A stretch of DNA of 33,387 nucleotides from assembly GCA_041694835.1 (NCBI GenBank), contig JBGFRZ010000063.1, positions 1 to 33,387 on the forward strand, read 5' to 3'. A model generated the notes under the pieces. That model had not been told where the DNA came from. It saw nothing but the letters and a program-made list of their open reading frames with translations, and did no database searches. A program made the position numbers and the translations under genes. The stretch is from Ignavibacteria bacterium. GTDB taxonomy: Bacteria; Elusimicrobiota; Endomicrobiia; PHAN01. This document shows, in pieces, positions 17,825-22,006 of the stretch (positions are counted from its first letter, which is position 1; every line of letters starts with the position of its first letter).

Positions 17825-18083
17825 TTGCCGATTCGCCCCGTTTAAAAATATTCCACAACTTTGTTAAATTTTGTTAAGCAGCCCGACGGAGTGATTTTTT
17901 AAGTCCGAGGGATTTTTGGTAAAATTTATAGTTCTTTGTAATCCAGTCAGCAGTTGTGTTAGAATTAAGTTTTCGGAATAATTCTAACTGTTGTCCCATA
18001 GTTTTAGGTTTAGTCAGGAAGATTTAAATTGAACCCCAAGACAACTTTTGTAAAAAAGTAAAGGGTAAGGAGTGAAGAAAAAT

Positions 18084-19202
18084 ATGAAAATTCAGCTCGT
18101 TGATTTGTCCGCAGGTTATCATGAAATAAGAGACGAAATAGAAACCGCCGTCAGGAAAATTCTCGACAAAACGAACTTCGTGCTCGGCGAGGAGGTGGAC
18201 CAATTTGAAAAAGAATTTGCCGCTTTTTGCGGCAGTAAATATGCTGTCAGTGTGGCGAGTGGAACTGACGCTTTAAAAATAGCGCTGTTGGCTGCCGGAA
18301 TTGAAAATGGCGACGAAGTAATAACGACACCCAGCACTTTCGTTGCGACCACAGAAGCAATTGTTCAAAGTAAAGCAGTGCCAGTTTTTGCGGATGGGCT
18401 TCTTGACACATATAACTTAAATCCAAATGAAGTTGAAAAGAAACTCACCAAAAAAACAAAAGCAATACTGCCAGTTCATCTTTACGGTCATCCATCCGCT
18501 ATGGACGAAATTATCCGCATCTCGCAAAAATACAATTTACAAATTATTGAGGACTGCGCTCAATCGTTTACGGCGCAATATAAAAATTCAGACGGAAAGT
18601 GGCGCTATACAGGGACATTGGGCGTTGCGGGGTGTTTTAGTTTTTTTCCGGCAAAAAATTTAGGGGCATTCGGCGACGGCGGGATGCTCGTCACCGACGA
18701 CGAAAAACTTTACGACAATGCAAAGGCATTAAGAAGTCACGGCAGCCATGTGAGATATTATCACGACTTTGACGGCTTTAACTCCCGTCTTGATACTATT
18801 CAAGCAGCAATACTTTCTGTCAAGTTGAAACATATTACCAGATGGACGAAAATGAGAAATGATGTCGCCAGGAAATACAACGAGTTGCTCGGCGGTTCGG
18901 TCATAGTTCCCGTCAGTAAAGAAAATTGTAGACACTCTTTCAATTACTATAACATCAGATTTGCGAATAAGCACAGCAGAGATAAAGTTCAAAAAGCGTT
19001 GCTCGATAACGGGGTTGCTTGTCAGATTTATTATCCTTTGCCCCTTCACCTTCAGAAGGCGTATGTTCATTTAGGTTATAAAAAAGGCGATTTTCCCGTT
19101 GCAGAAAAAATATCCGACGAAACACTCGCTTTGCCGATGTATCCCGAATTATCTGATGAGCAGATAAGATACATTGTGAAGGTTGTCAAAAGCAATTTGT
19201 AG
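18084..19202 (+). CDS. DegT/DnrJ/EryC1/StrS-family sugar aminotransferase
   Basis: Motifs SGTDAL, PVHLYG, IEDCAQS, FSFFPAKNLGAFGDGG, NSRLDTIQAA and LPMYP. GTG at 18072 is an alternative start. Confidence 0.93.
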   Translation: MKIQLVDLSAGYHEIRDEIETAVRKILDKTNFVLGEEVDQFEKEFAAFCGSKYAVSVASGTDALKIALLAAGIENGDEVITTPSTFVATTEAIVQSKAVPVFADGLLDTYNLNPNEVEKKLTKKTKAILPVHLYGHPSAMDEIIRISQKYNLQIIEDCAQSFTAQYKNSDGKWRYTGTLGVAGCFSFFPAKNLGAFGDGGMLVTDDEKLYDNAKALRSHGSHVRYYHDFDGFNSRLDTIQAAILSVKLKHITRWTKMRNDVARKYNELLGGSVIVPVSKENCRHSFNYYNIRFANKHSRDKVQKALLDNGVACQIYYPLPLHLQKAYVHLGYKKGDFPVAEKISDETLALPMYPELSDEQIRYIVKVVKSNL

Positions 19203-19205
19203 TTT

Positions 19206-19582
19206 AATTGGACGCAGATAAAGGTGGATAAACGCAGATTAAAGCAACCATAAAATCATCGCCGATTACTACACTCGGGGGCAGGTTCTGCGTTCATCCT
19301 GTAAATCTGCGTCCTAAAATTTATCAGGAACATTTCTAATGGGACGCAGATAAACGCAGAAAAGACAGGATTAAGAATTATCTGCGTTAATCTTGTAAAT
19401 CTGCGTCCTAAAAAACTAATTGAACGCAGATGAACGCAGAAATAACTTTGATAAACGCAGATTAAAGCAACTATAAACTCATCTGCGAAAGTCCGCGTCC
19501 TAAAAAACTAATTGAACGCAGATATACGCAGAAAAAACAGGATTTAAGAATTATCTGCGTTAATCTTGTAAATCTGCGTCCT
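19206..19582 (+). repeat. Array of four palindromic units with 9-nt periodic arms (G[G/A]ACGCAGAT...ATCTGCGTCCT)
   Basis: Units at 19206-19315, 19342-19409, 19418-19501 and 19510-19582, joined by A-rich linkers. Two interior subtypes alternate. Confidence 0.93.
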
Positions 19583-19585
19583 AAA

Positions 19586-19616
19586 TATTACTTGAACCAT
19601 ATATCATCACCTCTAT
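19586..19616. repeat. Exact 31-bp copy of 20478-20508 (5' UTR, RBS and first five codons of the antitoxin gene)
   Basis: TATTACTTGAACCATATATCATCACCTCTAT at both positions. Flanking bases differ on both sides. Confidence 0.95.
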
Positions 19617-19618
19617 GA

Positions 19619-19657
19619 CCCCCGATTACTACACTCGGGGGCAGGTTCTATCGGGGG
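19619..19657. repeat. CCCCCGA-TTACTACAC-TCGGGGG-CAGGTTCT hairpin element
   Basis: 28 bp identical at 19262-19289 and 19622-19649. A variant lies at 20817-20845 and a partial reverse copy at 22122-22136. Confidence 0.85.
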
Positions 19658-19822
19658 TTTTTCTCTGCGCTCTCTGCTCCCCTTGTGGTGAGTTTTAGCG
19701 AAGCGTCAATGAACCCTATTTCACACTTTGATTGTGGTTGCCGGAAGCGGATATGAATTTGTTATTGAATCACCAATGAGACGGCCGTGCGGGCGCTCTT
19801 GTGGTTAAAGATTTTTCAGGAA

Positions 19823-20212
19823 TTATATAGTTGATATTGAAAAGAGTGCAACAATTTCTCTCAATACAGAGTCGAAGGCGGGCTCATTAGTCGGAAGAAC
19901 ATCATCTTCACTTTTAAAGTGCTTATGGTGGGGAAATGTGCTAATTGCTTTATAATGAGGGGCGTTATCATAACGAAAAATAATTTTTCCAGTTCTTGTT
20001 TGGTAATGATACGAATATTGAATTTTATTGTGTTGTGTTGAATCGATTATTTCCAGCAGGTAAAGCTTTGAGATATCAATAAATGTAATGTGCCCTTTTA
20101 CTTTTCCTAAACTGGTTGAGCGGGATTCAAAGATGATTGTTTCGGATAAAATGAAAGGTGAGAAGTTTTTCAGGGAATGTCGTATCTTATCGAAATATTT
20201 TTCAATCAGCAA
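19823..20212 (-). CDS. DUF6516/TumE-like toxin of a type II toxin-antitoxin pair
   Basis: Motifs YSYHYQ, IFRYDNAPHY and TFPHHKH. TTG at 20212 overlaps the antitoxin end; 20236 is an alternative start. Confidence 0.78.
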   Translation of the reverse strand: MLIEKYFDKIRHSLKNFSPFILSETIIFESRSTSLGKVKGHITFIDISKLYLLEIIDSTQHNKIQYSYHYQTRTGKIIFRYDNAPHYKAISTFPHHKHFKSEDDVLPTNEPAFDSVLREIVALFSISTI

Positions 20213-20492
20213 ATTTAATCTCTCGAATTTCGGCAAGTTTGTTTTTCAATCTGTTAAGAATTTCTTTTTCGCCAGCCCATTCAATAAAATCAATTTTATC
20301 ACCCAGAAGTCCCTGTTGAAACTTTTTGTAGAAGGAGTCTGTTTTCATCTTGTAATGTTTTTCAAATTGTTCAAGAATCTTTTTTGTCTGATTGATAGCA
20401 ATTTTAAGAGAATATTCTCTATTTCTGACCGTTTCTTCAAGGAGAACCCGAATGTTTTTTTTGTTATTGGGTTCGATTATTACTTGAACCAT
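20202..20492 (-). CDS. TumA-like antitoxin
   Basis: FEKHYKMKTDSFYKKFQQGLLGDKIDFIEW signature. RBS GAGGTG. It lies upstream of and overlaps the toxin gene. Confidence 0.75.
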   Translation of the reverse strand: MVQVIIEPNNKKNIRVLLEETVRNREYSLKIAINQTKKILEQFEKHYKMKTDSFYKKFQQGLLGDKIDFIEWAGEKEILNRLKNKLAEIREIKFAD

Positions 20493-20515
20493 ATATCATC
20501 ACCTCTATAAAGACG

Positions 20516-20544
20516 ATTATAATAAAAATATATAAAAAAGTCAA
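20516..20544 (-). promoter_or_regulatory. Sigma70 promoter of the TA operon
   Basis: On the minus strand: TTGACT (20544-20539), 17 nt, TATAAT (20521-20516). Predicted +1 is at about 20508-20509. Confidence 0.8.
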
Positions 20545-20632
20545 AAAGGCAAATTCCGTATATTCTGTTCGTCGATTGATTGAAGATGTTGAGTCCGCTT
20601 TTTTATCTGACATTTGGCATAAAGAAATAAAG

Positions 20633-20902
20633 ACAGCGAATAGCAAATAGCAATAGCGAATAGTGATTGACGACCGGTGATAGGTGTTGTAGTTGCCGAC
20701 CTGCCCCGTTATGGCAGGGTTTATCGGCTATGTAGCGCGAATGGATTTCCGATACAGAGATTCGGGAATGACAAGACAAAAAAACGAAAATTGTAGCGGC
20801 ACAGTTCCCCGACAACGACCCCCGATTACTACATTCGGGAACAGGCATTCGGGGACAATCTTTACGGTGACTATATGTTGCACCACAAGGCGGCGCTGCT
20901 AC
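20633..20902. repeat. Nested REP-like mosaic upstream of the GT4 gene
   Basis: AGCGAAT/AGCAAAT heptamers at 20635-20663. GCCGA..CCTGCC..GGCAGG..TCGGC at about 20694-20728. TGGATT..CGGGAATGACA at 20742-20773. GTAGCGGC...GCTGCTAC at 20793-20902 encloses the CCCCGATTACTAC element. Confidence 0.7.
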
Positions 20903-20926
20903 GATTGCGTATGACAAAATGATTTT

Positions 20927-22006
20927 ATGTCGAAACCCAAAATATTTTGTCTCTCAACAAGTTTAAACATCGGCGGAGCGGAAAAATTTTTAACGACGGT
21001 TGTAGAAAAATTAGGACATAGATACGATTTTACCGTCGGGTATTTGAAAGATAGGGGCTATTACGGCAAATATCTTTCCGACGAGAAAGGCATAAAAGTA
21101 ATAAAATTTAACTGCCCGTGGTCGCTTAAAAATTATTTGCTTGAGAATGACTTTCGCATTCTGCACACTTTTCTTTATCGCGCCAATATATTCGGTCGTT
21201 TTTCGGGAAAACTCGCCGGGTCGCCGCACATAATTTCAACTCAACTTGCAATCGATAAATGGAAAAGATGGTACTATGTACTTCTTGACAGATGGACTGC
21301 CAGATGGTGTTCTACAATCATTGCCAATTCCGAGTCGGCAAAAATGACTCTGATATGCCGCGAAAAAATCCCCGCGAAAAAAATCAAAGTAATATATAAC
21401 GGTTTAGATTTTGATAAAATAATAGCGGTTAAACCGTCGGAAGAAATAAGAAAAGAGTTTGGACTCAATGAAAGTGAGCCGGTAATAATTTGTGTTACAA
21501 GATTGCACTATGAAAAAGGGACGGACTTACTGCCGTCTATCGCATCAAAAGTTAAAAATGGTATTTTTCTGATTGTGGGTGATGGTCCCCAGAGGAATAA
21601 GTTGGAGGTTGTGGTAAGAGAGCGGGGATTAAGCGATAGATTTCGGATTCTCGGCTGGCGTAAGGACGTCTTGGCGTTGCTGAAAATCTCCGACATATTT
21701 CTTTTACCTTCAAGGGAAGAGAGTTTTTCGCAGGCCTTGCTTGAGGCGTTTTCCGCGGGTCTCCCCGCAGTTGTTTCAAATGTCGGCGGCATAAAAGAGT
21801 TGGTAGAAGACGGCAAAACAGGATTTCTGATAAAGCCCGGCGCTCTCGACGATTTCAGTGGTAAAATAAATTTTCTTATTGAAAATCCGTCAGAGGCGAA
21901 GAAAATGGGTACAGCGGGGTTTGAAAAAGCGAAGGATTTTTCTGAGGACAAAATGATTGCTGCCGTCGACACCTTATACGACGATTTATTGGTTTTAAAA
22001 AGATAA
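20927..22006 (+). CDS. Glycosyltransferase family 4 (GT-B)
   Basis: Motifs IGGAEK, IYNGLD, VGDGP, PSREESFSQALLEA and VGGIKELV. Confidence 0.92.
   Translation: MSKPKIFCLSTSLNIGGAEKFLTTVVEKLGHRYDFTVGYLKDRGYYGKYLSDEKGIKVIKFNCPWSLKNYLLENDFRILHTFLYRANIFGRFSGKLAGSPHIISTQLAIDKWKRWYYVLLDRWTARWCSTIIANSESAKMTLICREKIPAKKIKVIYNGLDFDKIIAVKPSEEIRKEFGLNESEPVIICVTRLHYEKGTDLLPSIASKVKNGIFLIVGDGPQRNKLEVVVRERGLSDRFRILGWRKDVLALLKISDIFLLPSREESFSQALLEAFSAGLPAVVSNVGGIKELVEDGKTGFLIKPGALDDFSGKINFLIENPSEAKKMGTAGFEKAKDFSEDKMIAAVDTLYDDLLVLKR

What the first reader, a model, noticed from the sequence alone, without database searches (positions are those of the whole stretch)
19586..20508. Exact 31-nt copy of the TA mRNA 5' end placed like a spacer at the end of the palindrome array
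Seen: 19586-19616 is identical to 20478-20508. It starts 3 nt after the last array unit and is followed directly by the CCCCCGA hairpin. On the minus strand it reads ATAGAGGTGATGATAT-ATG-GTTCAAGTAATA: the RBS, start codon and next four codons of the antitoxin. Its boundary at 20508 is an A lying 7 nt past the TATAAT box, which is the predicted transcription start. Inference: (a) the match to +1 hints at capture from an RNA 5' end; (b) a + strand transcript running from degT through the array would carry a perfect antisense guide to the antitoxin RBS, flanked by hairpins that could define processing sites, giving array-encoded control of the TA pair; (c) the simpler alternative is the relic of a tandem TA duplication or deletion.
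Basis: partly seen in the sequence, partly recalled or inferred. Interest (0 to 1): 0.8.

Follow-up and report, generated by a model that had tools for sequence, protein, structure and literature searches.

The report
Leftover toxin-antitoxin start at insertion junction
The 31-base copy of a toxin-antitoxin gene start is real, but it is most likely a scar left when this small gene pair was spliced in next to an ordinary genome-wide repeat, not a captured CRISPR-like spacer.

Summary
The copy is real: 19586-19616 equals 20478-20508, occurs only twice in the genome, and is far shorter than the assembly's 121-base overlaps. It covers the ribosome-binding site and first five codons of a TumA-like antitoxin preceding TumE. 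The two copies bracket an 892-base unit. The 'array' is a dispersed intergenic repeat (66 clusters on 40 contigs), not CRISPR. No other cluster holds a gene-start copy, nothing is duplicated around the stub, the genome's type II-C CRISPR repeat is unrelated, and no reverse transcriptase was found. Related TumA-TumE pairs are bracketed by exact repeats of 20 or more bases in 10 of 69 loci (controls 2 of 200). One cable-bacterium locus has the same own-start copy behind tumE, with no promoter there, and its relatives hold orphan tumA stubs. [quoted passage not shown] Antisense control is untested (no RNA data) and unsupported. This scan noted similar gene-start stubs in other genomes before. Bolder but unproven: the pair moves in and out using its own start as an attachment site.

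The parts
18072..19202 (+). degT/DnrJ/EryC1/StrS aminotransferase gene, upstream of the repeat array; weak promoter-like match at 17936-17965
   Evidence: PF01041 E 1.7e-115; promoter scan 9 of 12, a count at chance level
19205..19585 (.). Mosaic of a genome-wide intergenic repeat: four inverted pairs of short cores forming nested hairpins; not a CRISPR array
   Evidence: cores at 19210/19342/19422/19514 and 19305/19399/19491/19572; 77 exact copies of the 13-nt end; 108 sites in 66 clusters on 40 contigs; fold z -6.8
19260..19289 (+). Mini-hairpin copy H1, inserted in the array; 28 nt identical to H2
19586..19616 (-). The stub: exact copy of tumA leader, RBS, ATG and four codons; opens an 18-codon dead-end frame into the array; left edge of the block that lies between the array and the glycosyltransferase gene
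19617..19658 (+). Mini-hairpin H2 (27-29-nt mobile palindrome) plus a second right arm; a family also found nested and in tandem in both sister genomes of the family
   Evidence: short hairpin pairing probability 0.99, alternative stem 0.01
19660..19721 (+). Second dispersed repeat family
   Evidence: 19 genome copies of its 27-nt core at up to 4 mismatches
19722..19822 (.). Unique 100-nt orphan segment, origin unknown
   Evidence: no convincing match in own genome or in 400 phylum genomes
19823..20236 (-). tumE toxin gene (DUF6516); ORF from its first TTG, true start probably a few codons in
   Evidence: PF20126 79.9 bits over cut-off 23.4; NF045777 E 5e-20 but under its cut-off; single copy in genome
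20202..20492 (-). tumA-like antitoxin gene, overlapping tumE
   Evidence: NF045776 E 4e-10, under its cut-off; 73% relatives with the same pair
20478..20508 (-). Source of the stub: 5' end of the operon; nearly the same stretch is the best-conserved block in relatives (28 of 29 nt)
20516..20544 (-). Predicted sigma-70 promoter of tumA-tumE
   Evidence: 11 of 12 consensus; similar promoter in L018/L019
20817..20845 (+). Mini-hairpin copy H3, nested in a larger hairpin
20927..22006 (+). Family 4 glycosyltransferase gene, probably the original downstream neighbour of degT and the array (inferred)
   Evidence: PF00534; similar arrays often end 9-42 nt before a same-strand gene start

Best explanation
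The stub is a DNA recombination scar. Shown: an 892-nt unit (tumA start, tumA, tumE, orphan, repeat, hairpin H2) is bracketed by two exact 31-nt copies and sits antisense at a repeat-rich gene junction. Inferred: the unit was briefly head-to-tail, joined at hairpin H2. Either it duplicated in tandem and the second copy was deleted up to the array end, or a circular or duplicated form recombined into an older tumA stub by a single crossover. The two routes give the same product and cannot be separated here. Perfect identity points to a recent event. The predicted consequence is that the pair can drop out by recombination between the copies, leaving promoter plus stub. The stub needs no function.
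For: Exact repeats of 20 nt or more bracket the pair in 10 of 69 related loci versus 2 of 200 shifted control windows. Aligned, most are 50-270 nt, 83-98% identical copies of host gene ends, gene starts or intergenic DNA. L134 has the same layout: a 52-nt, 92% copy of tumA RBS and first 13 codons, 3 nt behind the tumE stop. Five orphan tumA starts without the rest of the pair occur in 4 of its relatives (L142, L170-L173). The stub's two joints are with mobile or multicopy repeats. The own genome has another start stub, thrB on C75. Bracketing by long repeats without mobility genes is described for restriction-modification genes (PMC2853133).
Against: No empty-site or full-duplication relative of this locus was found, so the order of events is not shown. 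The own-start layout is rare: 1 of 80 other loci. In most bracketed loci the repeat is host DNA, not the cassette's own start. The 10 loci are not independent: two share one cyanobacterial repeat, two are Pseudanabaena, one (L115) is a CRISPR-like repeat. L142 differs from L134 more than about 45 nt upstream, so it is not a clean empty site. The match of the boundary to the predicted start site is left as coincidence.
Confidence: 0.7

Rival explanations
1. Short templated insertion: a replication or repair fork stalled at hairpin H2, switched to the tumA start 892 nt away, copied about 30 nt and switched back to the array. No full duplicate ever existed. (Template-switch models such as FoSTeS/MMBIR are recalled, not from a call.)
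For: The 6-mer that forms the hairpin's arm-loop border also lies at both ends of the source, nearly in register on the promoter side. A hairpin 6-mer near both ends occurs at 0.06% of 543,086 genome positions. The insert is short, exact and between two strong hairpins.
Against: The microhomology was noticed after the fact and is not exactly at the joints (clean overlaps are only 1-3 nt). It does not account for L134 or the bracketing of other loci.
Confidence: 0.15
2. Selected antisense control: a plus-strand RNA from degT, processed or terminated at H2, pairs with the tumA RBS and lowers antitoxin output.
For: Perfect duplex, -49 kcal/mol, by construction. The anti-RBS part is predicted mostly unpaired. 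An alternative stem followed by a U-run is 2.8 kcal/mol above the minimum.
Against: That stem has about 1% weight, and the scan lists no plus-strand terminator. L019 lacks the copy. It is 1 of 66 clusters. No Rfam match near a gathering score. Read-through to the glycosyltransferase would already be antisense to the entire operon (inference).
Confidence: 0.06
3. Spacer-like capture: off-target integration by the genome's type II-C Cas1-Cas2, or reverse transcription of the mRNA 5' end.
For: The genome has cas9-cas1-cas2 with 30-nt spacers, close to the stub's 31 nt, whose ends are ambiguous by 1-3 nt. Type II Cas1-Cas2 integrates off target at low level in vitro (PMC6895254). The boundary fits a predicted start site.
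Against: Full integration duplicates the target, and no duplication flanks the stub. The flanks do not resemble the CRISPR repeat. No PF00078 match in the genome. A source only 892 nt away in the same orientation is expected of local recombination, not of spacer sampling. L134 shows the same boundary with no promoter.
Confidence: 0.05
4. Assembly artefact at a repeat-rich junction.
Against: Contig-end overlaps of 121 nt are four times the repeat length, and both copies have distinct flanks inside one contig.
Confidence: 0.03

Closest known systems
Insertion with long target duplication (restriction-modification genes; Furuta, Abe and Kobayashi 2010, PMC2853133; passages and Discussion read)
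   Same: A small selfish gene unit with no transposase or integrase is bracketed by long direct repeats (their threshold is over 30 bp) that allow amplification or loss; gene fusions at the joint are also reported there, as with stub-TatD in L134.
   Different: Here the unit is a toxin-antitoxin pair and the repeat is the unit's own 5' end, not host DNA; no empty site was available to prove insertion.
TumE-TumA type II toxin-antitoxin family (Durairaj et al. 2023, PMC10584680; passages and section 8 read)
   Same: Bicistronic, antitoxin first, DUF6516 toxin second.
   Different: The parts read say nothing on flanking repeats or mobility; our proteins score under the NCBIfam cut-offs; activity untested.
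CRISPR spacers and regulatory mini-arrays (PMC6895254 passages; bioRxiv 10.1101/2023.03.03.530964 abstract and outline)
   Same: A ~30-nt piece matching the control region of a toxin-antitoxin pair, next to hairpins.
   Different: No repeat on both sides, not in a cas locus, perfect rather than partial match, no likeness to the genome's CRISPR repeat.
Dispersed hairpin repeats: NTS/SRM (dRS3) of Ssn nucleases (PMC11893778; abstract and first quarter of Results read); REP/BIME/REPIN mosaics (recalled)
   Same: Hundreds of intergenic hairpin repeats in clusters; the mini-hairpin nests in dRS3-like hairpins in sister genomes. The genome has one Y1 transposase and two GIY-YIG fragments.
   Different: The array core is a different sequence; which enzyme, if any, moves it was not determined.

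Membership tests
CRISPR spacer or mini-array | Spacer flanked on both sides by the same repeat | tested here: not met
   longest shared word 6 nt; 9 of 36 identical
CRISPR spacer or mini-array | Flank resembles the genome's CRISPR repeat | tested here: not met
   best 16 of 36, background median 18
CRISPR spacer or mini-array | Located in a cas locus | tested here: not met
   cas genes are on C77; none among the 30 window proteins scanned
CRISPR spacer or mini-array | Length near the system's spacer length | tested here: met
   31 nt versus 30-nt spacers
RNA-derived spacer capture | Reverse transcriptase in the genome | tested here: not met
   no PF00078 match; genome 97% complete, so absence not proven
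RNA-derived spacer capture | Boundary equals the mapped transcription start | not testable with these tools
   only a consensus promoter; no run was listed
Insertion with long target duplication | Direct repeats over 30 bp bracketing a unit under 20 kb | tested here: met
   31 nt, 892-nt unit
Insertion with long target duplication | No transposase or integrase in or beside the unit; repeat not multicopy | tested here: met
   none among 30 window proteins; 2 copies in the genome
Insertion with long target duplication | Relative with an empty site holding one copy | tested here: inconclusive
   no close relative among 40 and 400 genomes; only the analogous L142, not a clean empty site
TumE-TumA | DUF6516/TumE toxin domain | tested here: met
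   PF20126 over cut-off; NF045777 under cut-off
TumE-TumA | Small partner gene directly upstream | tested here: met
   96 aa, overlapping; NF045776 E 4e-10, under cut-off
TumE-TumA | Toxicity and neutralisation | not testable with these tools
   needs expression in E. coli
Antisense RNA regulator | Discrete stable transcript, conserved complementarity in relatives | tested here: inconclusive
   no RNA data; copy absent in L019; no Rfam family near gathering score

The most novel reading that the evidence does not exclude
TumA-TumE pairs cycle in and out of chromosomes without a transposase by using their own 5' end as an attachment site. Loss leaves a promoter-plus-RBS stub, and a small promoterless circle closed just upstream of the RBS later recombines back into such a stub, giving start-pair-start. 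This locus and L134 would be integrated states, and the orphan stubs in cable bacteria would be the waiting targets, one of them kept as the start of TatD.
Probability: 0.15. Interest if true: 0.6.

Novelty: new member of a known kind. Interest (0 to 1): 0.22.

Why it matters
As a scar it matters little: it records a recent gain of a toxin-antitoxin pair at a repeat-rich junction. The useful by-product is the family-wide count: about one in seven TumA-TumE pairs is bracketed by a long direct repeat, which bears on how such pairs spread through chromosomes without mobility genes, and gives a PCR-testable pop-out. If the pair really homes to its own leftover starts, that would be a self-contained mobility route for two-gene cassettes. 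I did not see that described in the listings of three literature searches.

Tried and rejected
Sequencing runs: none was listed, so neither assembly nor expression could be checked. Close relatives: 40 genomes gave only short matches; TumE was found in 13 of 400 other phylum genomes and in neither genome of the family. Viral contigs: 0 of 38 candidates confirmed. The first genome-wide screen for captured segments missed its own positive control and was discarded; the redo recovered it. C81:29996-30653 and C67:38296-38895 looked like downstream stubs but are internal repeats of long surface-protein genes at contig ends. L060's apparent tumA-start copy is the start of another gene. L042, L065 and L132 start-window hits were not examined further. 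In one search, 12 of 97 loci had no TumE ORF under my profile and 4 had no partner; they were dropped. The terminator-like stem was mis-indexed and redone. The idea that the array is the arm of GxxExxY cassettes was not followed up: the one PF13366 gene lies on C61, away from the listed clusters. The 100-nt orphan gave only chance-level peptide matches. Rfam: four matches at E 0.78-0.98, all far below gathering scores. No PAM test was done. Supplements of the papers were not read; those of PMC10584680 could hold context tables that mention flanking repeats.

Full report
Observation. The two 31-nt stretches are identical and have different flanks. Across the 1.9-Mb genome in 89 contigs they are the only two places even at 8 mismatches; chance expectation is about 1e-9. 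Read on the minus strand, the copy holds the leader, RBS, start and four codons of the 96-aa ORF 20202-20492. An 11/12 sigma-70 match ends at 20516. Of 178 contig ends, 123 match elsewhere and 81 of those overlap by exactly 121 nt, so a 31-nt repeat inside a contig is unlikely to be an assembler product. No sequencing run was listed.

The gene pair. The downstream ORF is TumE (PF20126, 79.9 bits, cut-off 23.4), single in the genome. Both proteins hit the NCBIfam TumA and TumE models below their cut-offs. TumE-TumA is a validated translation-targeting type II system in other bacteria (PMC10584680; passages and section 8). Two metagenome contigs carry the pair at 74-75% nucleotide identity with a similar promoter. 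Their best-conserved block, 28 of 29 nt, is almost exactly the stub. L019 has 311 nt downstream without a copy; L018 ends inside tumE. The pair's region is AT-rich (GC 0.31 versus 0.42 for the genome) and lies antisense between degT and a glycosyltransferase gene.

The array. Its 13-nt end occurs 77 times exactly, and 108 times at one mismatch in 66 clusters on 40 contigs. By crude ORF of 66 lie outside long ORFs, and many end a few tens of bases before a same-strand gene start. So the block 19586-20926 looks like material added after a resident array, and the stub is its left edge (inference). The hairpin after the stub is one of three copies in the locus and belongs to a 27-29-nt palindrome family found nested and in tandem in both sister genomes. 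A third repeat family covers 19660-19721. The 100 nt at 19722-19822 remain unexplained.

Test of capture. All 66 clusters with 120-nt flanks (21,142 bases) were scanned for exact matches to non-array sites. Of 2,155 matches of 16 nt or more, 12 were 20 nt or more and low-copy, and only this one is a gene-start copy. The other 11 are 20-28 nt and looked by eye like rarer repeat variants or chance; I did not check each. An earlier version of the screen missed the positive control and was discarded. The genome has a type II-C locus on C77 with 36-nt repeats and 30-nt spacers. Its repeat matches the region no better than background, and nothing is duplicated around the stub, whereas spacer integration duplicates the repeat (PMC6895254 passages). 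The similar length, 31 versus 30, is the one point in favour. No reverse transcriptase was found.

Related loci. I fetched 80 TumE loci from named genomes (alignment) and 14 from the phylum. Of 97 loci examined, 12 had no TumE ORF under my profile and 4 no partner; 81 were scored, including this one. In a stricter test on the 69 loci with 300 nt on both sides, exact repeats bracketing the pair reached 20 nt in 10 of 69, against 2 of 200 shifted windows in the same loci; at 14 nt the counts were 13 of 69 and 6 of 200. Aligned, they are mostly 50-270-nt copies of host gene ends (L062, L081, L089, L133), gene starts (L107; also L095, 374 nt, wider bracket) or intergenic DNA (L060, L076, L126). 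Kin are included and L115's repeat is CRISPR-like, so about 7 independent cases remain. This is the pattern called insertion with long target duplication for restriction-modification genes (PMC2853133; passages and Discussion).

The matching case. L134, titled Candidatus Electronema nielsenii by the tool, has a 52-nt, 92% copy of the tumA RBS and first 13 codons 3 nt behind the tumE stop, fused in frame to tatD. Its tumA overlaps the end of the upstream gene, so this stub cannot start at a transcription start. A separate scan of 112 loci for copied RBS-plus-ATG returned only L134 and one spurious row. Among 119 genomes of its family, 45 matched the query; four genomes hold five orphan tumA starts ending 12-22 codons in (L142, L170-L173), and L142 has stub-tatD with no pair. 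L142 is not a clean empty site because its upstream DNA differs beyond about 45 nt. In the own genome, C75 has a 51-nt, 92% thrB start stranded 2.6 kb upstream of intact thrB.

Mechanism. Shown: two exact copies bracket 892 nt; both joints of the stub are with repeats. Inferred: a head-to-tail intermediate joined at hairpin H2, followed by truncation at the array, or a single-crossover return into an older stub (0.70 together). A short template switch is the main rival (0.15): a hairpin 6-mer lies at both ends of the source, seen at 0.06% of 543,086 positions, but this was noticed after the fact. Antisense control (0.06): the anti-RBS part is predicted mostly unpaired, and a stem with a U-run lies 2.8 kcal/mol above the minimum but has about 1% weight. 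The local fold is not unusual (z -1.1), Rfam gives nothing, and read-through from degT would be antisense to the whole pair anyway, as in noncontiguous operons (PMC11034616; search listing only). Cas or RNA capture 0.05; artefact 0.03.

Novelty. Gene-start stubs at insertion joints are a known kind of scar, and this scan has noted several in other genomes (unchecked AI notes, not counted as support). Three searches for toxin-antitoxin pairs flanked by such repeats (listings only) showed no paper on own-start copies or on TumA-TumE bracketing; the library lacks most subscription journals and no supplements were read. Regulatory mini-arrays were compared from an abstract and outline, Ssn/SRM repeats from the abstract and first part of Results. 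REP/BIME/REPIN, FoSTeS/MMBIR and the gene labels thrB, tatD, rarA, TPR and cas9 are recalled from the sequences and come from no family search. Verdict: observation confirmed, spacer reading not supported, new member of a known kind, interest 0.22. The self-homing reading stands at probability 0.15, interest 0.6 if true.

Noticed in passing
L115:2535-3750: A TumA-TumE pair sits between CRISPR-like repeats (36-37 nt, period 65): one repeat upstream, an array of at least six downstream.
   Followed up: no
L134:1757-2597 and L142:1004-1855: The tumA start stub serves as the in-frame N-terminus and RBS of tatD in two related genomes, replacing the N-terminus seen in other relatives.
   Followed up: partly
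L148, behind the tumE stop: A 12-nt copy of the tumA RBS region follows tumE and heads another small antitoxin-like gene; cassettes seem to stack at this RBS.
   Followed up: no
G000:C75:199-2886: 51-nt thrB start stub upstream of a 2.6-kb block of extra genes, intact thrB downstream.
   Followed up: partly
G000:C77:147-5186 (L190): Compact type II-C CRISPR locus: 1078-aa Cas9-like ORF, cas1, cas2, three 36-nt repeats and two 30-nt spacers with no close match in the smaller contigs tested.
   Followed up: partly
window 19823-20544 within 18072-22006: The pair with its own promoter lies antisense inside a probable degT-glycosyltransferase operon, a noncontiguous-operon-like layout; no plus-strand promoter or terminator was listed between them.
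   Followed up: no
window 20468-20489: The first codons of tumA form an imperfect 7-bp palindrome, a possible operator; not kept in L018/L019.
   Followed up: no
window 19722-19822: Unique 100-nt segment between tumE and the repeats, origin unknown.
   Followed up: yes
G000:C41:8790-9122 (L017): Single Y1 (REP-associated-type) transposase gene flanked by its own inverted repeats, unlike the array core.
   Followed up: no
several clusters, e.g. G000:C52:4002, C65:24862, C71:3623: The array end runs straight into a shared AGGAG-containing leader and the next gene's start, so the repeat may supply ribosome-binding sites.
   Followed up: no
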